Part shown: piece by piece, positions 2,085-57,745 of the stretch
How positions within the stretch are numbered: position 1 is the stretch's first letter
Layout of the letters: every line of letters begins with the position of its first letter
From: Takakia lepidozioides
Taxonomy: Eukaryota; Plantae; Bryophyta
DNA length: 64,000 bases
Direction of reading: 5' to 3'
NCBI GenBank assembly: GCA_030704615.1
Contig: CM060734.1
Location: 25,048,001 to 25,112,000 of the forward strand
Made by a program: the position numbers and the translations under genes
The notes under the pieces: model-generated
What the model was told of the DNA's origin: nothing
Seen by the model: the letters and a program-made list of their open reading frames with translations, nothing else
The model's database searches: none

Positions 2085-2570
2085 AGAGGAGAAGTAGAGA
2101 GGGGAAGTCCAAAAAGCTTCTTTCTGACCCCAGTCAATGGTGGGACAATCGTGGCAAAAAGGTGAATGCTTGTTGGATTACAGAGAGTAGTAGATGCCAT
2201 TGAGCATAGGAACCAGTGTGATAAGTTGAGTTTGGGTTTTTGTTGGAACAAATCTAGGGCTGTCATTGTCAGCAAGGATGTATGCATGATCTGTGCAGAG
2301 GCATGGATAGCTGAAGGAGCAGGGATAGAGTGTGGGTCCAGATTCAGCCAAGAGGGCCGGATTTCAAGCACAAGATTACCTATGATTCCTGTGGAAGGAT
2401 AGCTACAAGAAACTTGCATGGGTAGATGGTCAACTGGAAGCCGCAGCAGCAGCAACATAATGATAAAATCAGGCACTACTAATCAAGGCACCTTCTTCAA
2501 CACATTTCACCATGTTTTTCCCTCTTATCAGAATCGGCCCTAAATTTCCATGTTGAATTCTGCAAGTTAG
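2085..2570 (+). repeat. Copy of the dispersed ~555-bp exon/intron-like repeat unit
   Basis: Shares TTCTGACCCCAGTCAATGGTGGGACAATCG, GATAGAGTGTGGGTCCAGATTCA and GGGTAGATGGTCAACTGGAA with copies at 11.1-14.2 kb and 30.1-31.8 kb. Confidence 0.85.
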
Positions 2571-2650
2571 CTGCGTTTTTTATCTCCTTAGAAAAGTTAG
2601 AATCAGTTTCTTTTTATATTACGAGTACTCCACTGTAAGGGAGGAAGAAA

Positions 2651-2782
2651 GTGATGAAGATGCTAGAGGACAAGATCGTTGAACCGTTGGTCGGCAAGAA
2701 GTTTCATCTGGCTGACTTCAAGGCTGCTCTGGTAGAGGCAGAGCAGGACGCCCGAGGTGGCAAGGTGCTTCTGGTGAATTAG
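2651..2782 (+). pseudogene. Isolated C-terminal fragment of an MDR-family (zinc-binding dehydrogenase / enoyl-reductase-like) protein
   Basis: Manual translation VMKMLEDKIVEPLVGKKFHLADFKAALVEAEQDARGGKVLLVN* resembles the F-x-L-x-D-x-x-x-A...GKVLL C-terminus of MDR enzymes; no upstream exons recognised. Confidence 0.55.
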
Positions 2783-3742
2783 CGAGTTTACAATCTCATA
2801 ACGCTCACATAAATCCGACAGGTGCATTGTACTGGACTCTTCATCGCCCAAAATTCAATGAATGTACATAACTCATGCTTTCAAAGTGGCTGACAGAGCT
2901 ACCTAAAAAACTGCTTAGAAATCCCTTCGTTAAGATCGTTACCTTTGCAGATGAGAAGTTTTTTCCTGACAGGAGGAAGTACCTTACGCCAGGTGTAAGA
3001 CACCTAGGGCCTTAAATTAGTAAGCTCCACTTCAACCAACAGACCCAACAAAGAAACCAGGATTGAAGAATAAAAAACCACTAGAATTGTACACAGTGTA
3101 GTGTAAGTAGATCGATTATGAAATGTTTACTGTATATGCAAAGAGAAGCAGTACTCTGCAATTACTTGATGAAATTGAACAAATACATCTTCATCCTTGG
3201 CATCTCCAACACCGTTATTGTGTGAGCAGCTCACACAAAGTTTGTGCCAGGTTATTATTTGGTTAGCCCTTTGCTTCATACTATGGGCGGGTCAGCCATG
3301 TTCCGCTTACAAGGCTTACACATTCTGCATAGTTTATGCCCACCTTGTCCTATACAACCATACTTGTTGCAAGATGCACACTCCAGCATGAGATTTTAAT
3401 AATGCAGTCCTGGACTTCCTAAATATCAAACCCACAGAAATTGTTGTAAGTATCGCTGCACACTGTACCTATGTCAAATGGGTTAGTAAGTAGCAAGTTG
3501 TATTTTGGAAAGTGTGTATTTGCATTCTGTCCATCGCAATCAAATTTATGACTGTTTCCAGGATGTATATGTTTAAATCAGACTGACCATTTCCTTCGGA
3601 AGTACATTCTCTGCTTTGTGTTGTGAGGGGCGTGGTTTGTTTCCCTGGGGTAGTCTTACATGATTTTCATCCTGTTTTATTTTTGTCAGACAGTGTGAAG
3701 GAGAAACTGTATGAGAATCTGAGTGTATGAACTTCGGCACCA

Positions 3743-4112
3743 AACATGAAGCGCAAAAGCAAGACAGGTCTCTTGTCTTTATGTTAGTAGGATTGATGAG
3801 GTCATTTGCATAAACACTATGCATGCTCTGACTTCCCTTGACAGTGCTGCAGTCCCACCGCTTTCCCCGCTCAACATCATCGCGACCAACATCCCAAAAA
3901 ACCCTGCGAACTTCTGACCTTGCCTTTGAGTAGGAAGAGAGAGGCATACCTCCTCCCAACCTCATCCTTAGGAATGTAACAGCATCGGTAGCATTCTGAA
4001 GTTTCACACCATGTGGGACAAGTTGTTTGGCACGGTGCTGGCGCTTCACCACGGCACCAACTCCATCATGCTTTCCCTTTCCATGGCCAGACCCAAAAAA
4101 ATTCCACCCCCC
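3743..4112 (-). pseudogene. C-terminal fragment of a DDD/E DNA transposase (Sola2-like)
   Basis: WNFFGSGHGKGKHDGVGAVVKR...VKGSQSMHSV...RDLSCFCASCL in ORF 3573-4196; HGKGxxDGxGxxVKR plus a C-terminal SCxCxxC is typical of this transposase type; subgroup assignment tentative. Confidence 0.6.
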
Positions 4113-4114
4113 AT

Positions 4115-4540
4115 GAGAGGAACATTCTCCGGGATGTAAGTTGGAGGTTGCACTTGCCTCACCTGCAAGTCGCGCAACACTCGCAGCATCTCCCAAAACA
4201 GATGCGATCGTGCATCATGCAAACCATTACCATGACCTGCGGGAGAATGTCCTTGATAAGGCCACCATCCTATCACCAAGTCAATGGGATCATGCCGATC
4301 CAAATCCTCCGCCCCCATCATGGTAATGTCTCATTTTTTTCCCTTGAATTGTTGATAAAGGCAACAACTCAGGATACTGATGTGTGAGCAAGGCAACATG
4401 GCGCATGGAAACACTCCGAGCAATCTCATCATTCTCCACATACAAGTACTTGCGTACTTTGATTCCTTCTTGCAACACTCCTGTAAGCCCAGTGCTCATG
4501 CCTCCAAACAGGTCTAGCAAACAAATGCTTGAGTCAGGTT
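4115..4540 (-). pseudogene. DNA (cytosine-5)-methyltransferase domain (DNMT3-like), decayed
   Basis: Motif I ICLLDLFGGMSTGL, motif II-like YLYVEND, then a frameshift near 4335-4345, motif IV DLVIGWWPYQGHS (consensus GxPCQ) with GLHDARSHLFWE, and motif VI YIPENV at 4121-4129; cut off after motif VI. Confidence 0.85.
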
Positions 4541-7051
4541 GTTGCCAGATAATAGGCACTGTGACCAATGGAGCTAACTGAAGAGGTCCAGGTGATGTCA
4601 CTGAACTCCCCTCACCTACCTTTGAAATGGCCTCCTGCCATGCTTGCTGCACACACTGGCTTGACACTCGCTGCAAATCCCCAACTGTACCCCACAATGA
4701 GCTATGCACAGGAACATGAGGAAGCAACTCAGCCTTGTATGCCAATTGCTTGTCATCATAAGGTGGTGGCCTATCATCTGCATGGCTATTGCCCTCCAAG
4801 AGCTCACCACCCCAAGCCACCACACCTGAGAATGCAGCCAATGTTGGCATCATGTTCCTATGATCCACCGCTACATTCCCAATAAACCGCACTGGGAGCA
4901 GTGCACGTCGGTCATCCCCTGACTGCCACTCTGGCCTGTGGGATGTTGTTTCCTCCCAAAAGTCCAGAGTAAATTCCATGGGGTACAACACAGCCCCACC
5001 AACAAGCACATCATAGGACATCGCGTCCGTAACAATGGTTTTAGCTCTCATGACTGAGCCGTCCATAGGATGATCCGGCTGCAATCAAATGAAGAGCTCA
5101 TGGCGTGTAATCCCTCGCGCCTTCTCTGAACCACCCAAAGATGTTTGAATTTGGAAAGGGCAAGGCTCCAAGTCCGCCTCTGTAAGGCCCAAGCCTGCAA
5201 TAGCTGCTCTCCCCAACATCAAAGGCTGTGCTCCTGAGTCCAACAAGACCCGCAGTGGCCTATACCTCCTCCCGGTTGGACCACCCAATTGAAACATTTC
5301 ATCCTGATTGTCCACCAGGACTACTCCAGGAGTCACCATGCTGCGCTCAATGGCTGGCCTAGCTGGCAACTCCTGTAACCTTGCAGCTGCCGCTTGCCAT
5401 GGCGCAGCTGTGGCTGACTTCACCCTCGAATCCAAAGCATCAATAGTCTGCATCTTATCTGCTATCTCCGCAGATAGTGTCAATGCATCACCACTCTCAC
5501 AGAGTCTAGCTGCTAGTCTGAACACAGCAGCTGGCCGAATCTCCGGCATTGCAATGGTCATTGCAGAAAACAATGGAGCTTGGCAAACCGCCGTAGCCGC
5601 CCCAAGAATGTACTGGCTGCACCTTGCTTTACAGCACCACCCACTGGCATTTCCCGAGCCACACCAACTCTCCCCAATGGTACTCGTGACTCTACCTCTA
5701 ACACACTTGGGCGAGCGGGTGCCATTGATGGCGTAGGTGGCACTGTCTCAGCCAATGTAAAGGACTATGGAAGCCTTGTCTGACGACTCGCTTCCCCCCT
5801 TTGTGGATCAAAATCCACATCCGCTCATCTTGGCTCAGGAGCACGCGTTGCTGCTCGAGTGACAGCAGCAGCAGAGTCCAATACATGCAATGGCCCTACA
5901 AGTGCGGCTCCACACATGAAGCCCATACCAATCTGGTCTTCCCTAGGCATAGGAGGTTGTGCAAGTGGGGCTTGAACCTCAAGCCTTGGAGCTGGCGCAA
6001 CATGAGTAGTGGCCATGGCAGCAAGACGTTGCTCTAGCTGGGCAAGTTTATCCACCATGCCTTGGTCATGACCTTGACCCTGACATTGTGCTCCTTGGTT
6101 TTGGTTACGACCTCCACCCCGACCTCTGCCTCCTTTACCTCTCTGGACTACATTGCCTCGTCCTCGGCCACCATTGTTCCCTTGGAACTGGCTTGGCCGT
6201 AGCTCAGGATGCAAGCCATAACAATGGGCCTCCACATGCCCATACTTTCCACAATGCCCACACTGTAGTTGTGTAGGCTGTGCCTGTGCCGGCCCTTTGC
6301 CTCTCTCCGGGCAATCCTTCTTGATATGGGGTCCTCCACAATCCCAACAAGTCACACCCGACTGTTGTTGGCCTGAGAATGAAGGAAAAGACCTCTGCAT
6401 CTGAGATCCTCTCTATCCTTCCCTGGGCTTCATCTGAGCCCCCTTGTTGCCTTGAATACGTTGAGGTAGTGGTTGTTGTTGGCTAGGGGCCCCACTTCGT
6501 TGTGTCTCCTTGCCAAGCCCCACCATAACCACTCGCTCCTCCACCATATTGAGCTCTATCCGCTCTGCCAGCAAAAACACATTTGATAAGGTGGGTTGGT
6601 CCACTTGTAGGAGAGTTGCATCCCGCACCCTTCTCCTCAGCTCCTTGTCCAATATCCCATACCAGAATTGGACTGCCTGAGCTTCCGTAACCCCTTGGGT
6701 TACATTTATCAAGCGCCTCATGCGAGTGTAAGCCTCCCTCAAACTCTCAGTAGGCCTCCATTGGAACTTTTGCAAGCTCTGCAACTTCTCTGTCCTTATC
6801 CCTTGGTAGTTTCTCCTCAACTCCTCGAAGAACTCCACAACTGGGTTAAAGGCAGGCACGGGTGCTGGTGTTGCAGCAGGAGCTTGAGTGGATTTCCCAG
6901 CTCCTGTACCACTTGTCCCACTACTAGTCTGACAGGTCATCACCCCAGCCTCATCACCGACAGCACACTCTAGGATTGACCGGTGATCAAATCCGGACCA
7001 ACCTCCTATGAAAACAAACGCCCACACAAAACTAACATAGCGCACAGTCAA
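4115..7051 (-). mobile_element. Truncated Ty3/Gypsy-like retrotransposon: gag - 2 zinc knuckles - aspartic protease - C5 cytosine DNA methyltransferase
   Basis: Gag-like ORF 6413-7051; CWDCGGPHIKKDC and CGHCGKYGHVEAHC knuckles (5825-6400, same frame after one stop); protease LRVLLDSGAQ (5085-5573); same frame continues after one stop into a MTase domain. Confidence 0.85.
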
Positions 7052-7449
7052 GCATGCAGGTGTGGAGGGGATCCAAGCACAAGAAAATCAAAACAGTAAC
7101 TCCCCCACACCAAAAACACTCCACCGTGTCGCTCCTGCAAGACACCCCAACCCAAACGTGGACTGACTCTTGCCTCCACCTACGGAAAGGTTTTGGCCTA
7201 CAGAGAGGGTGGAAGACTACAAAGAAGAGAGACTAAAGCAATTCCTATCACAGCATGCTCGCATCCCACTACCCTATCCTGCACTCCACAGTAATCAACT
7301 TTAAAAGTCCATGGCTTTCTGGTACATGATTGCTTTTGCAATCTAACAATTGGTACACATACCTATTGTAGTTAGAAACCCTATACCATATAAATTTAGA
7401 TGAAATATTGAGTTGTTGGACAAATATGGGTAAAACCATGGAGGGAGGT

Positions 7450-8317
7450 CACCAAATTCGGATAGCGGAAGGAGATGAGGAAAGACAGCGTGCAGGACAA
7501 GGTATGGTTCATACAAATTCCTGGTGATGCCTTTTGGGCTCACCAACGCGCCAACGACCTTTAGCACATTAATTAACAGCCTTTTCCAGGAGTGGTTAGA
7601 TGACTTTGTGATCGTGTACATCGACGCATCTTGGTGTACTTGAAAACAAAGGAAGACCACCTGGAGCACCTCAAAAGGGTGTTCCAGAAATTGCGGGAAG
7701 GCAAGCTCGGGGTCACAGAATTCGGGGTCACAAAAGTGGAGTTCCTAGGGCATGTGATTACATAGGATGGAATCAAAATGGATGACAGAAAGGTGAGGGC
7801 GATCTTGGACTGGGAACCTCCGACTTCGGTCCCGAGAGTGTGATCCCTTCTAAGACTCGCCTCCTACTACCGAAAGTATGCGAGGAATTTTGCCAAGATC
7901 GCGGGGCCGCTGTCAGACCTCTTGTGTAAATCCAAGGTATGGGTGTAGAACACCTTTTGTGGCCAAGCTTTTGCCGAATTGAAGCAGCGGATGGCGGAAG
8001 CCCCAGTTTTGAAGATCCCGGAGCTCAACCGTCCGTTTGAGATTCACACAAATGCGTCGGACTTCGCGATTGGGGGTGTGCTAATGCAAGAGGGGCGTCC
8101 AGTGGCTTACGAAAGTAAGAAACTGAACAAAGTGGAGCGACGGTGGCCTACGCATGAGAATGAAATGAAAGCGGTGGTGCACTGCCTGGAGCTTTGGCTC
8201 CACTATGTTGGTTCCAACCCGGTGAAGGTGTTCACGGACAATGTCACGGTGAAGCCAAAGCTCACCGTGACAAGACATTTTGGCATTGTTTGACGTGGAT
8301 ATTCAGTACAAGCCGGG
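7450..8317 (+). pseudogene. Chromovirus (Ty3/Gypsy) RT-RNase H fragment
   Basis: [34 protein letters not shown]; near-identical to the reverse complement of 36520-37390. Confidence 0.9.
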
Positions 8318-8398
8318 AGGTACATCCCCAAGAGATACAGCAAGCACATGAACTAACGAAATTGTGCGGACACAATTTCAAAAGAGGGGGGGAATAAA

Positions 8399-9269
8399 TG
8401 ATAACGGCTAAGCTACGAGGGCCAGACAACGAGGGTCACGACGGGACATACCGGATGGTGATTGGTGTACACTACCTGGTCACGGGCAGAAAAAGCTAAG
8501 TATGCGGTACTTAGCAAATGGCCGAACAATGGTACATTACCACGGGAGCAGTAGTGGGTAGTGTAGCAATCGTGGGCCGTGAACCACGATATCACACGGC
8601 CACGTTAGCATCGGCTTTTACTAATAGAGGAAGTAGTGGATCGTGTACCACTATGGTACACGACCACTACAACGAGCCACCTTTTTAGCAAACCCTTTAG
8701 GTTGCATAGGCGATTAGGCAAACGGTCATTAACGACTGCAGGCTGTAACGGCTCTTTCGAGCATAGTATAAAAGGGTTGCACGCAACTTAGAAGGTATCA
8801 GTGATCAGTGTGTATTCAGTGGACTCAGAGTGATTCGATGTGTACTTCTGCTATGATGTGATGAACTCTGAAGTAAAGCCATGCTATTCGAAGTATCTCT
8901 GTGTAGAGTGAACGTGAGATGGAGAGAATGTATATTATGAGATAATGTGAGATGGTGAGAATGTGTATCATCTCAGAATAGCTCTTGTTTTGTCTTGACT
9001 ACCATCTGATTGTATGAACAAAGAGGCTTCAGTCTTTCCGACTAAGATCTTTTAGGCCAATGAGACTGTAGGTTAGGCTTAATCAATAAGATTAAGCAAC
9101 ATGTAGAGATATTGATTCATACGACGGTCATGGTTTAGCTATCATTAAAATGATTACTTTGTAATCGTTTCTGAAAGCATACCATCGGACAACCTCTGTT
9201 GCATGTCTTGGGAAATGGGCAGTAGTGCTGAGAGCCTGTTTTGTCTAAGTCATAAACGAGCGGTTAACA
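8399..9269 (+). repeat. 871-bp LTR (3' LTR) of the non-chromoviral Gypsy family, preceded by a polypurine tract
   Basis: TG...CA ends (TGATAAC...GTTAACA); AAAAGAGGGGGGGAATAAA immediately upstream; inverted near-identical copy at 29215-30085. Confidence 0.92.
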
Positions 9270-9577
9270 GCCATCATGAAATCCATTGAGACACTCTCCC
9301 AAGACCCCTCTGGAATCGGCAAAGGTTGTAACAGCCCCGCTTGCTTTTTGTACTCGCTCTAGTTTTGCTGGCATGTGGTGCATGTCTTGACATACTCCTC
9401 GGCCTCCTCCCGAAGTTTGGGTCAGAAATACTCTTTCTTCAAGAGTGCCGCGGTGCGCTTGGCCCCGTCGTGGCCCGCAAGCGGGCTATCATGGCCTTCT
9501 CTCAAGAGACTATCTTTGAGCCCTCCCTTCGGCACGTAGAGACGTTTTTGCTTGTATCGGAGCAGTCCATTATGCAA
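9270..9577 (-). pseudogene. Chromovirus integrase N-terminal (H2C2) fragment, inverted relative to 7450-8317
   Basis: LHNGLLRYKQKRLYVPKGG...HDSPLAGH...CTTCQ...SMDFM; matches 36065-36370. Confidence 0.9.
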
Positions 9578-9720
9578 GGGGGTGCACTCCAGCCAATATG
9601 TACCAGCCACGTGCGTGCACAGGAGGGGGTATTTTAAACCCCTCCATGTACAACATTATACATATAGAGGGGGGTTTAAATCACCTTAAATATAATCTTA
9701 CAGGAGGGGGTAATTGAATT

Positions 9721-9820
9721 GTAGGAGTAGTCTAGTGGTAAGGACGTAGAATGTGTTGTGATGCACCGCGGGATCAAATCGCGATGCACTATTGTTTTGC
9801 TTTTCTTTTTTTTCTTTTCT
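9721..9820 (+). other. Degenerate tRNA-like / Pol III promoter-like motif with T-rich tail
   Basis: A-box TAGTCTAGTGG (9728-9738) in a D-arm GTCT..GGAC; B-box-like GGGATCAAATC (9770-9780) flanked by CGCG/CGCG; T runs follow; acceptor stem not intact. Confidence 0.45.
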
Positions 9821-11079
9821 CCCCGCGATCTGTCTCCCGTGGGCTCTCTTTTCCCTCCTCCCGCGCCCCTTCCGTGTCAGCTAGGTCTTAGCAGGCCATG
9901 TTTCAATCTCTGCTTTTTGGTGGGAAGCAGATGGTATTCAGAGAAATTTGTGAAGGGGCAATGGGAGAAGGAGGAATGCATGGTGGAATGGGAAGCATAT
10001 TATGCCTGTGTCTCGGTACTCTCCCTCTCTAGTTCTCAAAGTTTTCATCTCTTGGTACCTTTATCACAATTTCTAGTGGTTTTTATGTACACTTTGTTGG
10101 TTTATTGCACTATGAAATGTAGGGGTTTCATGTAGTTAATGGTTCCAGTAGTTGTGCTTGTGGCTTCACATGGGTGCCTGACATGCGCAGACCGTCACCT
10201 CACCAGCAGATGTCCATGTGTGCTTAGTTGAGGTGAATGGTGACGATGGCATCAGTGGTGGCGGGGATGCGATGGAGCGACAGTGAAGGTGTGGGGAGGC
10301 ATAGGCAGCTTACTCCTTTTGTTGTTCTTTGGACCTACTTTAGCAGGCTTCAGATTTTGGTGATGTATTTGTCTGCATGAACTACACATCTCCTGATTGT
10401 GTGTGCAATCTTCAGGTGGGCGCCATACTTGCTCTTTGAGCAAGGATTGTAGTCAACGAAATTACTTTCAAAGTACAAGTCCTGCAAGCCTCAAGACACC
10501 ATTTTATCTCTCTGTCTCAAGTGTCTCCTCTCCTGGATTCGAATATTCAATGAGAGATAATCTTAGAGCTAGTAGATAGATCAAGGCTGCTGTTTGTGGA
10601 AGCTTGAGGCCCCACCCCATAGCTGTGGCACACAAATGAGGAGGTATTTAGATCAATGTCTGTATTTTGGGTTGGTTTCCATGAGGCTACCTTATTGGGA
10701 GTCCTGGGTTCAAGTATTTGGAGGCCTCTGAGGAGTGACAGGTGTACAGTTTTCAGCCATTTACAGACATGTCATTGACCTTACCATCAAGCACCTAGAG
10801 CCTTGAAACTTGAGGTGGCACTGTAAGCCACCATGAAAAGTAACAATGTCCTCAGAAGAGACAGTAGCACTGACAATGTCGGCAAAGAATTGTGGCTCCC
10901 ATAACCTAGTCTCATTGTTCTCTTTTTCAATGTGATTTTCTCACTACATAAACACAGAAGCTGGATGACTTTGGACCTTCTATCGTTCTTATGGAGTAAC
11001 TTGGAAGGAATCATCGTGGAAAGATAAGCAGAAGTGTGGTCTAGTTGGAGCTATATTCTCAACCTCTGTGTTTTCTCTT

Positions 11080-14000
11080 CATGGGTAGATGGTCAACTGG
11101 AAACAATAGCGGCAGCAACGCATTGATAGAACAAGGCACTGCTAATGAAGGTACCTTCTTCAACGCATTTCAGCCTATTTTCCCTGTTAGTAGAGTCGTC
11201 CCTATTTTTTCATGTTGAATTCTGCAAGTTAGCTCGTTGGTGGATCTATGGTGGTTTTGGAGTGATTTTGTGCTCCCTGTACCTTCTTCTTCAACCTATT
11301 TCAGTCTGTTTTGCCCTCTCATCATTAGGGTTTAGGGTGTTTGCTGGAAGAACTTCATGCCATCAGTGTCAGCTGCTAGTAGCAAGGCTGAGGATGTATT
11401 CATGATTTGTCCACAGGCAGGGATAGCTGAGGACTAGGGATAGAGGTCCAGATTCATCCAAGAGGGCCGGATTTCAAACACAAGTTTATTTCTGCTTCCC
11501 TGTGGATCAATAGCTACAAGCAATCGCGCGGGTAGATGGTCAACTGGAAACATCAGCGGCAGCAGTGCAATTGATAGAACAAGGCGATGCTAATGAAGGT
11601 ACATTCTTCAACACATTTCAGCCTGTTTTTCCCTGTTATCAGAGTTTTTCCATGTTTTTGCCTGAAGGAGCAAGGATAGAGTGTGGGTCCAGATTCATCC
11701 ACGAGGGTTGGACTTCAAGCTCCAGATTACCTTGATTCCATGTGGGTCAGTAGCTACAAGAAACCTACATGGGTAGATGGTAAACTAAAGGCAGCTATTG
11801 CAGCGGCACAGATGATAAAATCAGGCACCTCAACCATGACCACAGCTTCTGAAAGAGGATCAAGAGAGGGAGTCCACAATGCCTCTTCTGACATTTCTGG
11901 GCATGTGAAGATACTTTGTGCGGCAGACAGCCTGACAGAGGCTCTACAGATTCTAAACCAAGGAGGCATTTTAGGAGATTCAAATATGTATGTTTGTCTC
12001 TTGCTTAAGTGCATCAAGATGGAAGGTCTCGAAAGCTGGAAAGCAGGTGCACACTCACTTTATCCAAAGTGGGTTCACGACAGATGTTTTTCTACTCAAC
12101 ACGTACCCTTGTCAATATGCATGTTAAGTGCCGAGCATCAAGGATGCTCACCAAGTGTTCAACAGAATGCCTCAATGATCTTTGATCACGTGGAATATTA
12201 CGTTGGAAAGATTTACCAAGCATAGGTGTCGTAGGAATGTTTTGGAGACATATGAGCAGACCTGTGCTTGCCTTCTTCAGGGATGTGCTAAAACGAAAGC
12301 TTTGGCAATTGGCAAGGGGGGTTCATGCCCACATTCTCAATAATGAATTCGAGCCAGACATTTTTGTTGGAAACACCCTTATTAGCATGTATTGCAAAGT
12401 GCGGGAGTGTGGTGCATGCACGCCAAGTGTTTGACAAAATGCCCAAACGCAATGTGATCTCATGGGCAAGATTAGCTCAGCAATGCCATGGTGCAGAACC
12501 ATTCGACCTCTTTCGACATATGCGACTAGAAGGAGTGAAACCTAACGAGGTTACATTTATTGGGATTCTCAATGCGTGCTCCCTCCCAGCAGCTCTGGAG
12601 CAGGGCAATTGGCTCCAGGCCTGCATCATTGTTGCTGGATTCTAGTGGGGAATGCCCATCTGAGCATGTATTGCAAGTGTGGGAGTGTGGCTAATGCGCT
12701 CCAAGTGTGTGATAAGATGCCTCGGAGAAATATAGTTTCATGGAATGCCTTGATTGCAGGATTAGTTCAGCAAGGGCAAGGTGCAGAAGCATTCAAACTC
12801 TTTGCACGCATGCAAGGAGAAGGTGTGAAGCCTGACAAGGCCACTTTCATTAACATCCTTACTGCTTGCACCAACCCTCTAGCTCTGGAATGGGGCAAGC
12901 TGCTCCATGCAAGCATCATCAAAGCTGCTTTGGTGTCAGATATCCAGGCGGGGAATGCCCTTGTGAGCATGTATTGCAAGTGCGGAAATGTGGTGCATGC
13001 CTGTCAAGTGTTTGACAAAATGCCTAAGAGAAATGTGATCTCATGGAATGCGATGATTGCAGGATTAACATAGCAAGGGCATGGTGAGGAGGCGTTCAAA
13101 CTTTTTCAGCAAATGCAACGAGAAGGTATGGAGCCAAATGAAAATCACCTTCATGAGCATCTTGAACGCATGTACTACCCCAATAGCCTTGGAACAGGGC
13201 AAGGGCCTCCATGCAGGGTTGATCAAAACTGGATTTGAGTCGGATGGCAAAGTGGGAACTGCCCTTCTCAGCATGTATTGCAAATGTGGGAGTGTGTTGA
13301 TGCTCAGCAAGTGTTCATCAAAATGCCCGAACGAAATGATCTGATGAAGGTACCTTCTTCAACACATTTCAGCCTGAGGGCACCTTCTAGTTTGACATGT
13401 TTCAGCCTGTTTTTCCTCTCATCAGACTCAGCCCTGAAGCATATGTATTGAATTCTGTAAGTTAGCTCGTTGGGTGGATCTGCGGTGCTTTGGAGTGACT
13501 TTGCAAGTTACTGCCAAGGTGACAGCATGACAGTACCTAAAAAAAGATAACAGAGATGGAGAGAAGCTTTCAAGGAATGAATACTTCTCTTACCCCAATC
13601 AGTGGTGGGACAATGTGAGTAGATGGTCAACTGGAAATAGCAGCGGCAACAGCGCAATTGATAGAACAAGGGACTGCTAATGAAGGTACATTCTTCAACA
13701 CATTTCAGCCTGTTTTTCCCTGTTATCAGAGTCGTCCCTAAATTTCTAGATGGCCGGATTCCAAGCTCCAGATTACCTATGACTCCATGTGGAAGGATAG
13801 CTACAAGAAACCTGCATGGGTAGATGGTCAACTGGAAGCCACTGTAGCAGCTGCAGAGGCATGATGTACGCATTGTTAGTGTGGAGGGAGGGGTAGCTGT
13901 TGATATAGAGAGAGGATCGTGGGTGCAAAATCATCCAAGAGGGCCAGATTTGGAGCAAGGAACAGCGCTGGCAGGAGCTCTATAAATATGATCCACAACG

Positions 14001-14260
14001 GTGGAACAATATTGTCAACAAGGTGAGCTTTCTTCATGCAACATCGTAGGGAGTTTGACAGAACTTTGTATTTAAATATGTTAGTGTGGAGGGAGGACTA
14101 GCCGCTAATGCAAGGATGGACTGTGGGTTCAGGATCACCCAAGAGGGCTACCAGCAGTGGAAGTAGCAACATTTGGTCAATAGCAGCAGCAAGAATTAGC
14201 AATGTCAAACTCATCAATCAGGTACTTGCTTCTGTATACATTTCATCCTCTTATCAACGT
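11080..14260 (+). repeat. Array of degenerate exon/intron-like repeat units inside the transposon
   Basis: Repeated GGGTAGATGGTCAACTGGAA (about 11082, 11530, 11771, 13618, 13818) and AATGAAG|GTAC(C/A)TTCTTCAACACATTTCAGCC donor-like junctions. Confidence 0.8.
11829..13341 (+). pseudogene. Captured, frameshifted PLS-class pentatricopeptide repeat (PPR) gene fragment
   Basis: Repeated GNALVSMYCKCG...QVFDKMPKRNVISWNAMIAG...EAFKLF..MQ.EGVKP...TF..IL.AC triplets in ORFs 12325-13344; several stops and frameshifts; no E/DYW domain seen. Confidence 0.92.
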
Positions 14261-14380
14261 AGTCCATGCTTGGACAGCCTATAGGGTTGTATAAAACAGG
14301 ACTTTGGAACCTTCCAACCCGGGTGCTTTGTTATTGGTCTATCAAGGTCTGATTTGAAATGTTTTCATTGCATTTTGCAG

Positions 14381-17300
14381 GTGAACTCATCATGGAAGAA
14401 GAGTTGGAAGTAAAAGTCCTGCTCGTTGGAGGAGATGCATCACCAAACAGGCTTGGTTCTATGTTCACTATGCAAGGTGTCACATACAAATGCATCCGAG
14501 CAGAAATTATAGGTGATGAGCTTGTCTCAGCAAAATTTCATTTCATTTCCATGGGGGGTAGTGTCTTTTCAGCCAAGCAAGAAGAGAGGATGGTTCTGAA
14601 ATGGGATACTGTACACATTAAGATTTCAGACCAAAATGATGGGGACCAAGGATTGAAAAGACCTCTATCTTCCAGTGGTTCTACGATCTTGCATGAGGAC
14701 AGACCAGGCGAGGACCCGGCACCAGTGTCTACCAAGATGAGGATGGACCCTGATACACCCTTTGCTGGCGATGGTGGAAATGAAGACCATGCACATGAGC
14801 ATGCACTTCAGCAGAGATCTGATAGATTGTGCAGCACGTTGGCTACATCCAACGATATTCAAAAATGGCATAAAGAGATTAGAGCCGTTGAAAGGAAAAT
14901 CTCTGCAGAAGGACGATGTGACAAGTTTGAGCTGATGACAAAGGATCAACAAGGACAAGCAATGTTCCACATATGGTGTGTTGAGTGTGAGGATGTTTAT
15001 GCACGGTCTGGGAAAAACAAACCATATGATGCATGTGCAAACTTTATGAGATCTCATTTGAGGAGTGAGGGGCATCGCATAGCCTATGAGAGGCGTCATG
15101 GGAAGGGTTCATCACAATGTGTCATCAGCCCTGTAAATGCAGATGAAGCATTAGATGCAAAGAAGAACAGGGTGAAGGAGGTATTAGAGGAAGTCGCTCG
15201 GTTTTGTGAGGACAATCCTGGAAACAGATTTGAGATTGTGGAAGCCACAATTGGAGACTATTCGCAGTTGGGTTCCATAAGGATTAGGTGCCCACTTGAT
15301 TCAAAGTGGCTACTCTTGTTTCCAAGGACAGGTTCTTTGCAATCTTCTTTGACAGAGCATGTGAAAGGAAAAACTCATGTCGATGCAGAGATTTGCCAGA
15401 AGATTGGAAGTAGTGAAGGACTGTGCAAAAAGAGAGGAAGGCCTCCAAAGCCTATGATTGCCAAAGATGTAAAGCAACGGGATCTAAGCTCTTTCTTGGT
15501 CAGTCAACCTGTGTTGCCGTCCCCACCACTTGACAATCCAATTGTGGCATCAACAATGGGAGCATCCTCGTCACAAACTCCATACACTTGTGTTGACGCT
15601 GCCCAACGGGCAGATCTGATCGAGGATTGACAATTACAGCAAAGGTCCCAATGCAACAAAGGAAGAGACAGTTTGTGTTGGGGCCTATGGGATGAATGGT
15701 GGGAGTACAACCAGCAGAGAATAAGTCTGAAACCATTCCTTCAAGATAGCAAGGGAGGAAAGAAGTGGTATGTCGAGCCATTGACAAATGCAACCATCAC
15801 TCTAACCAATCAAGAGCATAAGGTTGTTGGTACGTTTCGGCACGTGGATTGTTTTAGAGTGTCATTGGATGGGGAGCCATTTCCAAACTTGAGATGTTCA
15901 GCATGTTCTTCCATTCCCTTGGAAAATGACTTCACAATGAGGGTATATAGAGAAAGAGGTGCCATGGAATGTAGAGGGGAGAGAGATACTGGCAAGGGAA
16001 GAAGGTTGTCATATCTTGGAAATGCCGAGATTGTCAAACAAGTTTACAAAAACAGATAGGAGTTGAGACAGTTGAGGAGGCCAAGACCAAAGTGGCATCC
16101 TTGTCTGTGCGATGTAGGAGTTTGAAGGAGTCTGGGATTGAGGCAATTGAAAGAGGAGATGTTCTCAAATTTTGTCGTGATATTGTTGATGCACATAGGA
16201 GGGGGGATTTTGAAGGAAAAGAAAGTTTGTGGGATTTTCTTGTTGATATGGGCAAGAATATTGACAGGTCTCCACAAGGGAAGAGGTATGGTACTAGCAC
16301 AAAAACAATGTTTGAGACTGTGCAGCTTTGGGGGGGTCCGAGATTGCATCATTTTTTGGCTTCAAATGTGGGGGGTCCTTCTATTGATACTACAAGACGG
16401 TCTTTGAGGAAAGGTTTGAAGTACAGAGCGGGACAAATGGATGATATATTTCAGCATGTGGCTGGAATTTACAGAGATGTGATGGAAGATGCAAATATTC
16501 CAATGGGAAGCATCCCAGTGATGGTGGCCGAAGATGAAACTGTTGTGAAGCGATTGGTACGTTGGATTGCTAGGGATGATACCCTTCTCGGGTTCTGTGG
16601 GCTTCAAGACAACCATGTATGAATTTCAAATTTTGTGGTGCAAGTGGGAGAAGGGGAATCAGGGTACGAACATATTGTGGAGGCATTCAAAAACAATGTG
16701 GTTGCCCATTACGCCAGAGTGTTGATAGCAAATCCTCTACATGTACGATTACCTCGATTGGTATTGGTAATCCAGCTCACTTGCAATAGATTTGACAACA
16801 ATTTTGTGAGATCACAATGGGAAGTGGTGAGACAGTTGTGGGACAAATATGTGAGGGACGTGATTGGGCCTATAATTGGGCATGCTTCAGACGGAGATAG
16901 TAGGAGGAGAAAAGTGATGTTAGAAGATTATGCCAATGGGGCTGGAAGTAGATTTTGCATCCCTTGGGAAGGATGGTTGTTTACAGGTCGAGTGTGCAAC
17001 GGGGGAGATATATACGGACTCCATGATCAGGACTTCATCCACAATGGGAAAAAATTGGTAAATCCCTTGGACAGTGCATCACGGACTTTGGTGTTGGGTG
17101 ATGAGGTTGCTACATTGAATCATGTGTTATTGGTCTACCATTCATTTTCAGTGGACAAGCATGGACTTCGGGAATGTGATATCAAAAGAGAAGATCGACA
17201 GAATTGGGCAACAGCTCAACGACTGGCATCTCGGAAGATGCAAGCTTGTTTGAGGGAGTTACAATCAACTGTGAATCATCGAAGGGAGAGGACCAAAGGT

Positions 17301-18790
17301 ACTGAAATTTACCTATACATCATTTCATGCTACATCGACATTTTTTTGTCTCCTCACATGTCATTGTGTGAGAGGGTACAATCTGCTGCGAAGGTATCGT
17401 TTTTTTCAGATTGTGGAAGTTGTGGTTATTCCACCACGAGGTGTATAATCTGAAATCCTTCTTCATTAGCAGGGAAGCATACTTGGATTTACAAATTTCA
17501 TGCCACTACGTGGTTCTACTTATCAAATTGTTCAAGGATAAGTTTAATCATGTGCAAGTTCCTTTGAGCCTTGTTGGTTCAGATGTGTGTGAAATATTCT
17601 TCAGCAAAGTGGGAGGTATGTTACGGAATGAGAGGACATATAATGGGTGTGATTTGATTGAGAGTGCGGGAGCATTAACACGCATATCCGAGTTCGAGGT
17701 GAATCCAAAAGGACCCAAGTTCTCAAGAGCTCACAAGAAACAAGAACACATTTGGTTTTCTTTGGAGAAGAAGCCAAGTATCCCCCTTGCTGATTTGTCC
17801 GACTTTTCTACTGTCCAATCGGATGATTGCATTGTGGAGGCTTTGAAAACTAGATTTCTAGAAGCGCAACTTTTATGCCATAAACTTGGGATGAAACCAA
17901 ACAAAGCGACAAACTTGGATTGGTGGAATGAGCCATGGACAATTGAGAGACAAATGGAGGCCGAGCTATTCAAAAGCATGGAAGAGGAGGGTGATGATGT
18001 CGATGCCATATATTCTATTTGTCCTCTTAATGCAGACACACATATTCAAAATGAGGTCGTGGAAGATGAATTGGTGTGCGGGCCATCGAATTCAATGGAG
18101 GATGTTTTGAGCCAACCTTTGGATGATCATGCGGAAGAGGTACTTATTCAGAGTGAATTGAGACATACTCTGGATGCTGTCATTGATGAGTTTGAACAAG
18201 AGAAAGATGGACCGAAGGCGGTGGTTCCATTTGTCAAAGTAGACGAGAAGACCATATTCAAAAGCACTTTGGTTAGCCAACTCAATGGCAACCCTACTCT
18301 ATCCAAGGATAGATTGACACGAGTAAGAAGTGCATCGATGTTGTTTTGCCGAGAAAACAAACCAACTACCAGCAACAAAACCACGAGCTTGGGATTGGGT
18401 TCGGATTGTGCTGTATTTTTTGTTGATGAGGAGACTGCGATCCAAACTACAAACAGGAAAGGCAGACCAGGGAAAACCTGCAGAGGAGCAACCAAAGGCA
18501 CTTGGTATTTGGGCAGGGTTCAAAGAATGCGGAAGAAAATCAATAAGCGGTTTGTAGAATGTAGGAATTCTGTTGATTTATTGGAGCGTCATTCTCATAT
18601 GGAGATTGGGTTAGCATGGTACCAAAAAATTCGAGGAGGGGTCTATACGTACGATTTGACGGATAACATGATGGTTGATTTGGATTCCATTATCGCGTTA
18701 GCATGTTTAAAGTACAATGTCAAGTCAAACACATATGTACTTGATGCAAATGACCGAAAAGTCTTTGACAACTTTATCAAAGGCAAATAA
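14381..18790 (+). pseudogene. P-element-like transposase (about 1450 codons), disrupted by 2 stops and 2 frameshifts
   Basis: Splice acceptor TTTTGCAG at 14380; Cys/His finger-like motifs; AT-hook KKRGRPPK; RNase H-like core AEDET (16533), ASDGD (16890), QDFIHNGKKLVN (DxxH, 17031), DRQNWATA, GSDVCEIFFS (17591); stops at 15628 and 16620, frameshifts near 16040 and 17400. Confidence 0.75.
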
Positions 18791-19079
18791 TTTTTTAATT
18801 AATTTTTTATATTTTAAATGAATAAATTCGATATAATATAAAAACATACATATACATATTGGAGGGTTATTTTTAATGATGGAAAATGAGAATATACATA
18901 CAGAAGGGGGTACTTTTTAAAAATTGTAAATTTTTGTATATTTACAGGAGGGGGTTTTATAATCTTCAAAAAATATGTACAGAGGGGGTATAAATTATCC
19001 AAGGACCCGTATACAGGGGGTTTTTTTTATTAGGCGACGAACGCACGTGATACGCACAGTTTATAAAGAGTGCACCCCC

Positions 19080-22035: not shown

Positions 22036-22987
22036 CCTTAGTTTTGCTATTGCTGTAAGGAATTGGAGCACCAATTCCTGTATCACAAGCAGTATGAAGC
22101 ACACTAGAAGTTGTGTAGACGGCAATTTCCAGTTTGCGGAAGAGAAGGTGAGGAGCTTGTTTCTGGGTTTAAGTAGGGGTTCTCCTCTGTAGGCTTCTTC
22201 TCTAACTTCTCTCGAGGTTCTCGTGGAGGTAATTCTATCCTGCTGTCCGCCTAGGTTTAAAGTGCAGTTAGCTTTAATTGCTGGGCCCAGGCTTACCAAG
22301 AAGCATTTAGCTTCTGGTAAAGGTTTTGAGTAAACCTCATCCCTTTTCTGGATGTGCCTGATTTTCTTCCATTGATGTTTTCTTCGTGGTTTGTCTTGGA
22401 TCGAACTGATGGTTATTGATGATTGTCCGGTTTCGGTCAGTTTACGTTCATCCATCTTGGATGTGTTCATCCATTTTGGTATGTGGTCCGTTTTTAGATG
22501 GGCGGCGTGTGCACAGTACTTGTAGCTTGGTTTAATGGCTTTGCCCTTATCATCCGCCGTCTTTTGGCAATCCGTTGGATTGTGCCGTCGTTCTTCCTCC
22601 GTGTTATGATCGATGGTTAGTGGTGTATGATTACCACGGTCGGTTGGGTAATCTGGAGCGTACATCTCACACAATCAGTGACTCGTTGGCTGTTTCGTAT
22701 TCGGTCACGGTTCTGTAAGGCATATGTGCTGGCCACGGTTCACCATACAGTATACGGGGTGGTAATGTTGTCCTCCAGATGAATGGTGGTCTAGCCGTAG
22801 TGGTGCCCTAAACTCGTATTGCCACCTGTCTTAGTACATGCCGATTCACAGTGTCGTGATGAATGTAGTATGCACTGGCGGTTTCACGCTCCTGATCTGC
22901 AGTTTGATCTTCCTCGTTGGCGTATAAGTCATGTATAAGGGCTTTGTCATGTATCCCTTTGTAGCCTTTTAACTTGTTAATATTAAT

Positions 22988-29214: not shown

Positions 29215-30085
29215 TGTTAACTGCCGGTTTATGACTTAGACAAAACAGGCTCTTAGCACTACTACCCATTTCCCAAGACATACAACGGAGGTTGTCCGAC
29301 GGTATGCTTTCAGAAACGATTACAAAGTAATCGTTTTAAGGATAGCTAAACCATGGCCGTCGTATGAATCAATATATCTACATGTTGCTTAATCCTATTG
29401 ATTAAGCCTAACCTACAGTCTCATTGGCCTAAAAGATCTTAGTCGGAAAGACTGAAGCCTCTTTGTTCATACAATCAGATGGTAGTCAAGACAAAACAAG
29501 AGCTATTATGAGATGATACACATTCTCACCATCTCACATTATCTCATAATATACATTCTCTCCATCTCACGTTCACTCTACACAGAGATACTTCGAATAG
29601 CATGGCTTTACTTCAGAGTTCATCACATCATAGCAGAAGTACACATCGAATCACTCTGAGTCCACTGAATACACACTGATCACTGATACCTTCTAAGTTG
29701 CGTGCAGCCCTTTTATACTATGCTCGAAAGAGCCGTTACAGCCTGCAGTCGTTAATGACCGTTTGCCTAACTGCCTACGCAACCTAAAGGGTTTGCTAAA
29801 AAATTGGCTCGTTGTAGTGGTCGTATGCCATAGTGGTACATGGTCCACTACTTCCTCTATTAGTAAAAGCCGATGCTAACATGGCCGTGTGATATCGTGG
29901 TTCACGGCCCACGATTGCTACACTACCCACTACTGCTCCCGTGTTAATGTACCATTGTTCCGCCATTTGCTAAGTACCGCGTACTTAGCCTTTTCTGCCC
30001 GTGACCAGGTAGTGTACACCAATCACCACTCGGTATGTCCCGTCGTGACCCTCGCTGTCTGACCCTTATAGCTTAGCCGTTATCA
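29215..30085 (-). repeat. 5' LTR (871 bp) of the non-chromoviral Gypsy element
   Basis: Reverse complement of 8399-9269 (about 95-97% identical by eye); TG...CA ends; followed by PBS. Confidence 0.93.
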
Positions 30086-56404: not shown

Positions 56405-57019
56405 GTGCATTAAAAAACGCTCGGATTGTTTTTTGAGCCAGGAGAGCCGAATTGCATACAGACAGTGAAGAACAAGGACCATTTGTATCAGAAACGGCAA
56501 AACATCGACACAGCTACTTGTATGGCCCGCAAATGGAAGAGTCTGCATTGTCCATGAAGCCAAAGCGCTCAGGAGTTTATATTATTAGGGTACCTCCAAG
56601 AAACTCCAAGGAGCAACAGTTGAAGGCGTGCGATTCCAGTCGTCCGTTCGAACATCTACGGGCCGATTAAATGACTGCAGACAACAGTCTGTCTGTTCCT
56701 CACCTCAACGTCTGATCGCTATTCAAAGCAAATGCAAGCAAGGAGTGCTTGGCCTTAAGAAGAAAACGTCGATGAGCCTGTGCTTTAAATGACACGGTTG
56801 ACAACGGTCTCGCAATTACAGGTAGAAATTTTCACGTTGCTTCAACGCAGTTTCATGAGGACACTGGAGGCGTGGAGCACACATGCTCATGATACAATTT
56901 CATTTTCATGCTCGGATACGTCGGTGACAGGGATCAAGCATGGGTTCCCATGTATTTTAGTTCATTCATGCAAACAGACATTGCAATGCGGCAAGCAGCA
57001 AACTGCCGGCAGTGATCTC

Positions 57020-57745
57020 TTTTTCCCAGCCAACAGGTTCAAGTGGGAGGGGATACACCTGCTTCGAGTGTGGGAGGATGGTCGGGTGAGGATCGTACCT
57101 CACCCAACACAGCATGCACGGTTAGTGCGGCATGCCCATGAGGAGTTGGGGCATTTTGGAGTGCGATGCACTCATAGTTTACTGCAGGGGCAGTATTGGT
57201 GGCGTGGTATGCACACAGATGTGCAATAGTTCGTGGCTAGGTGCATGGTGTGTGACAGGGTGCGTGCTTCATTCAATGTCCCTACACCATAGTTGCATCC
57301 TTTACCCATCATGGGATTGGGCTACAGGTGGAGTCTTGACTTCGCAGGGCCTTTGCCACTGACAATGCGTCACCACAGATATGTGTTGGTGATGGTGGAG
57401 CACTTCTCCAAGTGGATTGAGTTGGTTCCATTGCCTGACAAGGCTAGTGAGGGGGCTGCGTATGCATTCCTGGATCGTGTGCTTAGCCGATTCGGTGCTC
57501 CAACTGAGGTACTCACGGACCAAGGGAGAGAGTTCTTGGGGGAGTTTCAGGCTTTGTGTGATAAAGCCTTGATAGACCAGCGTACCATTTCTCGGGATCA
57601 TCCTGAGGCCGATGGCTTGGCAGATAGAGTGGTGCAGACGGTGAAGAGGAGTTTGCGCAAGTATGGCTTGCAAAAAGGACACCTAGGAGATTGGGATCTT
57701 CAGATACTTTGGCTAGCCATGGGCTACAGGTTTAGCAAGCAAACA
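57020..57745 (+). pseudogene. Ty3/Gypsy integrase fragment from a third family
   Basis: HEELGHFG...YWWRGM...CMVCD, WSLDFAGPLP, VMVEHFSKWIE, VLTDQGREF, HPEADGLADR. Confidence 0.9.

What the first reader, a model, noticed from the sequence alone, without database searches (positions are those of the whole stretch)
4115..7051. LTR retrotransposon carrying its own cytosine DNA methyltransferase in the pol frame, in an apparent land plant
Seen: gag, two CCHC knuckles and a DSG protease, then, in the same frame across one TGA at 5085-5087, a C5-MTase with motif I (LDLFGG), motif IV (DLVIGWWPYQGHS...GLHDARSHLFWE) and motif VI (ENV). The MTase sits where RT would normally follow, so it is an element-encoded polyprotein domain rather than a neighbouring host gene. 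Known: retrotransposon-borne DNMTs have been reported in dinoflagellates and a charophyte alga but are not a standard feature of land-plant LTR elements. Inference: this lineage may persist in non-seed plants and methylate its own cDNA, to self-silence or to mimic host chromatin. In this copy the catalytic Cys reads Tyr (TAT, one transition from TGT), so it is dead.
Basis: partly seen in the sequence, partly recalled or inferred. Interest (0 to 1): 0.9.

Follow-up and report, generated by a model that had tools for sequence, protein, structure and literature searches.

The report
Plant retrotransposon carrying its own DNMT3
This is a broken, half-deleted copy of a high-copy plant jumping gene whose family, also found in liverworts, peat mosses and green algae, encodes its own DNMT3-type DNA methyltransferase, likely made in bulk with the capsid protein and predicted to methylate the element's newly copied DNA, which could now be tested in the model liverwort Marchantia.

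Summary
Real, but not as drawn. The element is on the minus strand. Gag with two CCHC knuckles, protease and a DNMT3-type domain (PF00145, E 5e-7) are split by two stops and two frameshifts. The copy breaks off after motif VI, with no RT, integrase or terminal repeat attached. It belongs to a high-copy family whose sister copies keep the catalytic Cys. Named relatives occur in Marchantia, Riccia, Calypogeia, three Sphagnum species, Closterium, Mesostigma, Klebsormidium and chlorophytes. Whole relatives read gag-PR-DNMT3-RT-RH-IN-PHD with split repeats (A…B-A-B), the layout published for KnitGypsy-Dnmt3, plus TGTC…GACA ends and 4-bp target duplications. In this subfamily the methyltransferase ends ORF1, before a conserved in-frame stop with a TMV-like context, so it is likely made at Gag level and RT-integrase by readthrough. 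An integrase fragment of the same subfamily lies at 57 kb. Methylation of the element's cDNA is inferred, not shown. Ten literature searches found no land-plant report. New variant of a known kind, testable in Marchantia; interest 0.65.

The parts
6200..6990 (-). gag: C-terminal part of the capsid region plus two CCHC knuckles (6311-6349, 6221-6262); N-terminal part absent; stop at 6413-6415
   Evidence: 45-54% identity to Marchantia, Calypogeia and unnamed ORF1 proteins
5620..6199 (-). gag-protease linker; frameshift between about 5620 and 5705
   Evidence: tblastn of P0078 and P0085 changes frame here
4900..5619 (-). aspartic protease region, LLDSGA at 5229-5246, interrupted by TGA 5085-5087
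   Evidence: 44-50% identity to relatives over protease plus linker
4341..4535 (-). DNMT3-type catalytic domain, motifs I-III (LLDLFGG 4500-4520, YVENDE 4425-4442), in the protease frame
4108..4330 (-). DNMT3-type catalytic domain, motifs IV and VI, after a frameshift at 4331-4341; Tyr at the catalytic position; truncated after motif VI
   Evidence: PF00145 E 4.6e-7; sister copies read Cys and leave the window sequence at 4331/4341 and 4108
6991..7400 (-). likely 5' untranslated part of the copy; upstream end uncertain (about 7250-7430), terminal repeat A not found
   Evidence: summed contig depth stays far above the flank to about 7370; no TGTCATG terminus in 2800-12000
3576..4107 (-). unrelated DUF7869-like (putative transposase) ORF fragment that replaces the rest of the element
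   Evidence: ESM Atlas feature hits 0.95-0.97, DUF7869 on 13-26% of members, recognition below the usual level, so a lead; its own sister contig diverges at 4107
56790..57745 (+). separate decayed fragment of the same subfamily: integrase zinc finger and core
   Evidence: Pfam Integrase_H2C2 E 3e-10, rve E 5e-14; 74-77% DNA identity to A1 loci over 57043-57735; inside the A1 clade, 99/92

Best explanation
The stretch is a dead, rearranged 5' half of a high-copy Ty3/Gypsy-type retrotransposon whose family encodes a DNMT3-type cytosine methyltransferase at the end of its gag-protease reading frame, where it is likely made and packaged in Gag-level amounts and would methylate the element's own cDNA before or at integration. 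SHOWN: domain order gag-CCHC-PR-DNMT3-RT-RH-IN-PHD in whole relatives; split repeats A…PPT-B-NN-A-B with TGTC…GACA ends and 4-bp target duplications; one conserved in-frame stop between DNMT and RT in two of three subfamilies; catalytic Cys kept in sister copies; Ka/Ks below 1; DNMT3-like predicted fold (identity and architecture about 0.92). INFERRED: RT-RH-IN is made by readthrough of that stop (about 0.7); the protease releases the methyltransferase inside the particle and it methylates double-stranded cDNA, so the new copy arrives already marked like host heterochromatin (about 0.5); integration uses a two-repeat circle opened at an internal GACA-NN-TGTC site, which would give exactly the A…B-A-B layout (about 0.45).
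For: Family, not one-off: 12 hits to the window's protease-linker-motif I piece among 2,024 candidates, 10 of them Marchantia polymorpha, 33-48% identical over 64-99% of the query. DNMT-domain searches name 15 M. polymorpha proteins, Calypogeia fissa and Sphagnum fallax among 67 hits, and M. paleacea, Riccia sorocarpa, S. troendelagicum and S. tenellum among the 120 listed of 617. Host multi-copy: 13,795 contigs of run X1 lie on 3400-7500; summed depth is 23,000-860,000 over the copy against 62 in the flank (not a copy number). At the catalytic codon all laid depth differs from the window and gives Cys: 17 contigs in X1, 1 in X5, 3 in X6. Architecture: 55 of 80 fetched loci show DNMT plus RT or integrase, with the element's RT/RH/IN downstream; L015 has two open frames, 1369 aa gag-PR-DNMT and 1046 aa RT-RH-IN-PHD, split by one TAG. 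Stop: 9 of 9 same-frame A1 loci and 16 of 16 A1 loci bearing the anchor motif (14 TAG, 2 TAA, then CAA CCY); 2 of 2 A2 loci have TAG CAG TTA, the CAR-YYA signal (PMC2754532); background CAR-YY 0.7%; intact liverwort and unnamed A1 ORF1 proteins mostly end 120-126 aa after the same motif, against 126 in the loci; in L015 the first Met of ORF2 is residue 117, inside RT. DNMT3 type: best PDB sequence hits DNMT3A E 8e-11, DRM 4e-7, HhaI 3e-3; AlphaFold model of relative P0266, pLDDT 94, matches DNMT3A/B/C at E 3e-18, TM 0.83 by target. Selection: median Ka/Ks 0.50 (36 pairs, A1) and 0.32 (77 pairs, A3), against 0.31 and 0.40 for RT. Tree: window copy inside the clade with Marchantia, Calypogeia and Sphagnum elements, SH-aLRT 100.
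Against: No activity is shown for any member; the Klebsormidium domain was inactive in yeast, though DNMT3B was too. The A1 context CAA CCY misses the last A of the TMV consensus, and an ATG follows three codons after the stop in most A1 loci, so re-initiation or splicing is possible. No consistent stem-loop follows the stop (z -0.55, -0.35, -2.73, -0.90). Subfamily A3 has no conserved stop (4 of 11 same-frame loci open, no position shared by more than 2), and P0123 and P0384 are single ORFs, so Gag-level expression is not universal. The DNA context of the stop was not seen for Marchantia or for the window's own host. Ka/Ks pairs are not independent, come from decayed copies, and exceed the <0.2 published for K. 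nitens. The DNMT tree holds no host DNMT3, carries long-branch warnings and does not join Klebsormidium to the land-plant clade with support. Target duplications were exact in 3 of 6 complete elements, one mismatch in 2, absent in 1.
Confidence: 0.7

Rival explanations
1. The element enzyme is active but acts mainly in trans or after integration, on genomic copies or insertion sites, as a self-restraint that limits transposition, or as an extra de novo methylase for the host.
For: Gag-level expression would give far more enzyme than one cDNA needs (inference). The integrase carries a PHD finger, which suggests chromatin-guided delivery. In Marchantia met mutants TEs are derepressed and non-CG methylation rises by an unexplained route (10.1101/363937, section 11).
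Against: No expression or activity data. The authors of that preprint favour an RdDM-like route, and bryophytes have host DNMT3 and CMT enzymes that can do this (PMC6453930).
Confidence: 0.2
2. The domain is kept as a nucleic-acid-binding or RNA-modifying module of Gag, not as a DNA methyltransferase.
For: KnitGypsy domain inactive in yeast. Motif IV varies: PC in 24 and EC in 25 matches across the 80 loci.
Against: Cys of motif IV, EN of motif VI and R-x-R of motif VIII are at least 90% conserved over 67 sequences; the whole DNMT3 fold is predicted; related SymbioDIRS DNMT3 domains methylate CG.
Confidence: 0.15
3. ORF2 (RT-RH-IN-PHD) is made by re-initiation or from a spliced or subgenomic RNA rather than by readthrough. 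This rivals only the expression step.
For: ATG three codons after the stop in 15 of 16 A1 loci and at codon 5 in L016; no stimulatory structure.
Against: L015 has no Met before residue 117 of ORF2; ORF2 is in frame with ORF1 in both subfamilies; the stop is followed by CAR-YY in 18 of 18 loci against 0.7% background.
Confidence: 0.25
4. A one-off chimera: a retroelement fragment fused by chance to a piece of a host DNMT3 or DRM gene.
For: The locus is a patchwork of fragments.
Against: The same fusion occurs in dozens of proteins and loci from liverworts, mosses and algae; it is intronless, lacks DUF3444 in Pfam scans and has unpermuted motif order.
Confidence: 0.02

Closest known systems
KnitGypsy-Dnmt3 of Klebsormidium nitens (de Mendoza et al. 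2018, PMC5890265; parts 1, 3 and 4 of 7 read; figures and the main supplementary PDF not seen)
   Same: Gypsy domain set, unrearranged intronless DNMT3, DIRS-like A-coding-B-A-B repeats, purifying selection. A K. nitens protein (GAQ93235.1, P0216) has CCHC-DSG-DNMT in one ORF, the same order, and scores 192 bits with P0004, against 44 bits for human DNMT3A with P0020.
   Different: Found in land plants and at high copy number. In subfamilies A1 and A2 the domain ends the gag-protease ORF before a leaky-type stop, whereas the paper places it in the Pol ORF. PHD finger on the integrase (not mentioned in the text read). Direct sisterhood is not resolved by the tree.
SymbioDIRS-Dnmt3 of Symbiodinium (same paper)
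   Same: DNMT3 domain in a retroelement polyprotein and split repeats; the only such domain shown to methylate CG.
   Different: Tyrosine recombinase elements; the family here has a DDE integrase and 4-bp target duplications.
EpiLTRs and DAM-LTRs (bioRxiv 10.64898/2026.05.21.726589; passages read)
   Same: LTR elements carrying methyltransferases and a chromatin reader.
   Different: Their DNMT is sister to DNMT4 and comes with a chromodomain and an adenine methylase; the preprint calls it distinct from streptophyte Gypsy-DNMT3 and names no land-plant host in the passages seen.
Host plant DNMT3 (PpDNMT3a/b; PMC6453930, passages read)
   Same: DNMT3-type catalytic domain with canonical motif order.
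   Different: Host genes carry a C-terminal DUF3444; the element domain has none and sits behind gag and protease.
Stop-readthrough retroelements (MuLV, SIRE1, Tca2; PMC2194720, passages read)
   Same: Two ORFs in one frame separated by a stop; CAR-YYA-like 3' context as in tobacco mosaic virus.
   Different: Here the stop falls after gag-PR-DNMT3, so an enzyme would be made at structural-protein level.

Membership tests
Ty3/Gypsy retrotransposon | gag with CCHC knuckles and aspartic protease | tested here: met
   motifs and homology in the window; Pfam scores there are below cut-off, relatives pass or approach it
Ty3/Gypsy retrotransposon | RT-RNase H-integrase order with DDE integrase | tested here: met
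   in relatives; absent from this copy, integrase fragment at 57 kb
Ty3/Gypsy retrotransposon | TG…CA termini and short target-site duplication | tested here: met
   TGTC…GACA; 4-bp duplication exact in 3 of 6 complete relatives, one mismatch in 2, none in 1
Ty3/Gypsy retrotransposon | two ordinary direct LTRs with a tRNA primer site behind the 5' LTR | tested here: not met
   repeats are split A…B-A-B; no TGG start behind repeat A in 7 of 7 informative loci; none in the window copy
KnitGypsy-Dnmt3 type | A-coding-B-A-B repeats on a Gypsy domain set | tested here: met
   6 complete loci, 2 with A…B-A, 4 more with the 3' B-A-B; published layout in Fig. 4c legend
KnitGypsy-Dnmt3 type | intronless, unrearranged DNMT3 with intact catalytic residues | tested here: met
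   for relatives; for sister copies; broken in this copy
KnitGypsy-Dnmt3 type | DNMT inside the Pol ORF | tested here: inconclusive
   A1 and A2 end ORF1 after the DNMT; A3, P0123 and P0384 run on into RT; K. nitens P0216 also ends after the DNMT but is flagged partial
KnitGypsy-Dnmt3 type | purifying selection on the DNMT | tested here: met
   all pairs below 1, medians 0.50 and 0.32; weaker than the published <0.2
KnitGypsy-Dnmt3 type | one DNMT clade with K. nitens elements, apart from host DNMT3 | tested here: inconclusive
   tree without host DNMT3, deep forks unsupported; bit scores favour it
KnitGypsy-Dnmt3 type | methyltransferase activity | not testable with these tools
   needs an assay; published test of the K. 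nitens domain was inconclusive
Host plant DNMT3 gene | C-terminal DUF3444, no gag or protease | tested here: not met
   against PMC6453930
DRM | permuted motif order | tested here: not met
   order I-IV-VI-VIII-IX-X
DIRS/Ngaro tyrosine-recombinase elements | tyrosine recombinase instead of DDE integrase | tested here: not met
   rve and Integrase_H2C2, no recombinase hit

The most novel reading that the evidence does not exclude
An old green-plant retrotransposon lineage, abundant in liverworts and mosses, makes a DNMT3 at capsid-protein levels, packs it into its particles, methylates a circular cDNA that its integrase opens at an internal palindrome, and, when derepressed, adds de novo methylation to the host genome. 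Marchantia would then hold a dozen or more overlooked DNMT3 genes that could account for part of the unexplained non-CG gain in met mutants.
Probability: 0.15. Interest if true: 0.9.

Novelty: new variant of a known kind. Interest (0 to 1): 0.65.

Why it matters
Since 2018 it has been open why retrotransposons carry the enzyme that normally silences them, and the known hosts (Symbiodinium, Klebsormidium) are hard to manipulate. Finding the family, with annotated full-length methyltransferase ORFs, in Marchantia polymorpha makes the question testable with genetics, methylomes and existing mutants. It moves the date of capture back if inheritance was vertical: relatives span Mesostigma, Klebsormidium, Closterium, bryophytes and chlorophytes. 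It suggests a design I did not find described, an epigenetic enzyme expressed at Gag level ahead of a leaky stop. It also means DNMT inventories of bryophytes leave out many element-borne DNMT3 genes. The window copy itself is a fossil.

Tried and rejected
No whole genome is held for this window, so no genome-wide count of intact copies. No RNA holder was listed; run X8 is only a guess at RNA and is not used for expression. Terminal repeats of relatives were not found in the window. Single-sequence AlphaFold failed, pLDDT 34; the alignment-based run was used instead. IMG/VR gave only 30 distant phage-type methyltransferases, used as outgroup. No stimulatory hairpin after the stop. No conserved stop in A3 between protease and RT. 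CpG depletion (0.36-0.59 in the family, 0.85 in a younger Gypsy) is confounded by age and is not used. Host lineage: PPR remnants point to Streptophyta; I could not narrow it. Reading them as PLS-class, a land-plant trait, is from recall. No vascular plant is named among the listed hits, but 497 of 617 hits were not shown and candidates were capped, so absence is not shown. The REM1 paper (PMC1291216) is not held; its resemblance is recalled only and not used. Two regex matches (L063, L077) lay in the RT of A3 loci and were dropped. L008/L010 and L062/L064 look like the same insertions and are not independent. Not-in-print claim: searches (open-access library only); the main supplement of PMC5890265 was too large to read and bioRxiv supplements are closed, so a listing of Marchantia sequences there cannot be excluded.
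Full report
1. The observation. The element lies on the minus strand. Frame A carries gag, two CCHC knuckles (6311-6349, 6221-6262) and a stop at 6413-6415. Frame B carries the protease motif LLDSGA (5229-5246), the TGA at 5085-5087 and motif I LLDLFGG (4500-4520). Frame A resumes for motif IV (4247-4282) and motif VI (4121-4135). So there are two frameshifts and two stops, not one frame. The piece 4100-4330 hits PF00145 at E 4.6e-7, above the curated cut-off; gag and protease hit below theirs. Against the intact 1319-aa relative P0078 the copy covers residues 163-531, 551-983 and 989-1062: the gag N-terminus and the second half of the methyltransferase are gone. At 4107/4108 a DUF7869-like ORF takes over (a lead), and contigs of both partners leave the window sequence there. 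No RT, integrase or terminal repeat is attached. A separate integrase fragment at about 56,790-57,745 is 74-77% identical in DNA to whole relatives and falls in the same subfamily (99/92).

2. It is a high-copy family in this host. No genome is held, but public contigs of the same organism label could be laid. In run X1, 13,795 contigs lie on 3400-7500, in all identity classes. Summed depth is 23,000-860,000 over the copy against 62 in the flank, with a sharp edge near 4100; this is not a copy number but shows a large family. At the catalytic codon all laid depth differs from the window and gives Cys (17 contigs in X1, 1 in X5, 3 in X6; X7 does not cover it), and loose ends on both sides of 4331-4341 show that this frameshift is not shared by those contigs. 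Host: PPR remnants at 12.1-13.3 kb point to Streptophyta. That they are PLS-class, hence land plant, is my recall. The exact lineage is open.

3. Range. The window's protease-linker-motif I piece found 12 proteins among 2,024 candidates, 10 from Marchantia polymorpha. P0003 (Mp4g09160) is a complete gag-CCHC-PR-DNMT ORF with PCQ; P0015 and P0022 run into RT and RNase H; P0001 ends in a PHD finger. DNMT-domain searches gave 67 hits among 7,994 candidates scored (15 M. polymorpha, Calypogeia fissa, Sphagnum fallax, Monoraphidium neglectum, one bacterial bin, the rest unnamed) and 617 among 7,991, of which 120 were listed (adding M. paleacea, Riccia sorocarpa, S. troendelagicum, S. tenellum). No vascular plant is named in those lists, which are capped. 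A full HMMER scan gave 305 representatives at E up to 1e-30. Of 20 looked up, names were Closterium (3 clusters), Mesostigma viride, Klebsormidium nitens, Scenedesmus sp. and one unclear eukprot label. Two domain orders exist: PR-DNMT-RT in streptophyte-named proteins and RT-RH-DNMT-IN-PHD in chlorophyte-named and many unnamed ones.

4. The enzyme. Best solved relatives by sequence are DNMT3A/B (E 8e-11), then DRM (4e-7) and HhaI (3e-3). An alignment-based model of relative P0266 (pLDDT 94) matches DNMT3A/B/C at E 3e-18. Catalytic Cys, EN and R-x-R are at least 90% conserved in 67 sequences. Host plant DNMT3 carry DUF3444 (PMC6453930, passages); none was hit here. Ka/Ks of the domain is below 1 in all pairs, medians 0.50 (9 loci, 36 pairs) and 0.32 (13 loci, 77 of 78 pairs), like RT at 0.31 and 0.40; pairs are not independent and the copies are decayed. 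In a 60-row quick tree the window copy lies inside subfamily A1 with Marchantia, Calypogeia and Sphagnum elements (SH-aLRT 100), outside their 13-row core. Deep forks, including Klebsormidium's place, are unsupported, long branches meet, and no host DNMT3 was available.

5. Whole elements. Of 327 confirmed metagenome stretches the best 80 were fetched; 55 show DNMT plus RT or integrase, in the order gag-PR-DNMT-RT-RH-IN-PHD. Six are complete with split repeats A…PPT-B-NN-A-B, two show A…B-A, and four more show the 3' B-A-B. Ends read TGTC…GACA. The B|A junction is GACA-NN-TGTC or a one-letter variant in 12 loci. Four-base target duplications are exact in 3 of 6, one mismatch in 2, absent in 1. 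No primer-site TGG follows repeat A in 7 of 7 informative loci. This is the layout published for KnitGypsy-Dnmt3 (PMC5890265, Fig. 4c legend), and K. nitens GAQ93235.1 has the same CCHC-protease-DNMT order. Common descent is therefore likely, though the tree does not prove it. Inference: a circle with two B-NN-A repeats, cut by integrase at one internal junction, would integrate as exactly A…B-A-B.

6. A stop after the methyltransferase. Among 32 of 80 loci with both anchors, 22 are in one frame. All 9 A1 loci stop at the same codon; with a looser anchor 16 of 16 do (14 TAG, 2 TAA, then CAA CCC or CAA CCT; two unrelated matches dropped). Both A2 loci read TAG CAG TTA. CAR-YYA is the tobacco mosaic virus readthrough signal (PMC2754532 and PMC2194720, passages); CAR-YY follows 0.7% of 34,810 stop-like triplets in these loci. 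Marchantia and Calypogeia ORF1 proteins that look whole end 122-126 residues after the anchor, against 126 in the loci; several truncated gene models end earlier. L015 has both ORFs open and no Met before residue 117 of ORF2. Against: most A1 loci have an ATG three codons on, no consistent hairpin follows, A3 has no conserved stop (4 of 11 open), and the junction was not seen in the window's host or in Marchantia DNA.

7. How it likely works. Shown: anatomy, conservation, copy abundance. Inferred: ORF1 makes Gag-protease-DNMT3 in bulk; occasional readthrough adds RT-RH-IN-PHD; the protease frees the enzyme in the particle, where it methylates the double-stranded cDNA so the new copy arrives pre-marked (about 0.5). 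Rivals: action in trans on genomic DNA (0.2), non-catalytic or RNA role (0.15), one-off chimera (0.02). The only direct data are from 2018: SymbioDIRS domains methylate CG in yeast, and the Klebsormidium domain was inconclusive. One speculative hook: Marchantia met mutants derepress TEs and gain non-CG methylation by an unexplained route (10.1101/363937, section 11).

8. Novelty. DNMT3-bearing Gypsy elements are known from K. nitens. A 2025 paper (PMC12344493, passages) and a 2026 preprint (passages) say only 'streptophytes', the former citing that work. Ten searches found no land-plant report and no mention of the stop; 'KnitGypsy' occurs in one paper. PMC9406493, PMC10952607, PMC9940879 and PMC8557442 were read as passages and add nothing on this. 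Unseen supplements and subscription journals may hold more. Two earlier notes of this scan on other genomes agree; they are leads, not support. Verdict: real; a new land-plant variant of a known kind; this copy is a fossil; interest 0.65.

Noticed in passing
P0037, P0044, P0059, P0161, P0187 and others: Many RT-RH-DNMT-IN-PHD relatives end in a further domain with DPWxG and SPP/WF-like motifs, resembling an amino-methyltransferase (recalled motif; no Pfam hit). If real, these elements carry DNMT3, PHD and an adenine- or N4-type methylase together.
   Followed up: partly
P0147 (Scenedesmus sp.), P0069 (Monoraphidium neglectum): Chlorophyte elements carry the related DNMT3 between RNase H and integrase, so the domain has moved within the polyprotein; 13 such rows form one clade (97).
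   Followed up: partly
L028, L060 and other A3 loci; P0128, P0221, P0123: Motif IV reads WECQ instead of WPCQ in subfamily A3 and in Closterium and Mesostigma elements; the Cys is kept.
   Followed up: partly
P0072, P0291: Two family proteins are labelled as bacterial metagenome bins (Spirochaetia, Obscuribacterales); likely plant or algal DNA inside the bins.
   Followed up: no
window 33,270-40,900: A younger, unrelated Gypsy with near-identical terminal repeats (100% over 244 nt, 98% over 224 nt); a decayed relative lies inverted at 7,440-8,320.
   Followed up: no
window 8390-9269 and 29215-30094: An 880-nt, 96% inverted pair, probably two solo LTRs of one family.
   Followed up: no
window 18,966-28,525 (-): A large Gypsy-like element with extra 3' ORFs of 496, 248 and 328 aa; the two scanned have no convincing Pfam hit.
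   Followed up: no
window 14,353-18,790 (+): About 1,400 codons of nearly continuous ORFs without Pfam hits, probably an undescribed DNA transposon.
   Followed up: no
window 12,100-13,300 (+): Frameshifted PPR gene remnant; a further PPR-like repeat at 50,460.
   Followed up: partly
window 2,100-2,600, 11,000-14,200, 30,100-31,800: A dispersed short repeat family with 6-7 copies (D1, D4, D8-D12, D17), SINE- or MITE-like.
   Followed up: no
window 2645-2782 (+): Last exon or remnant of a zinc-binding dehydrogenase gene (ADH_zinc_N_2 E 0.003).
   Followed up: no
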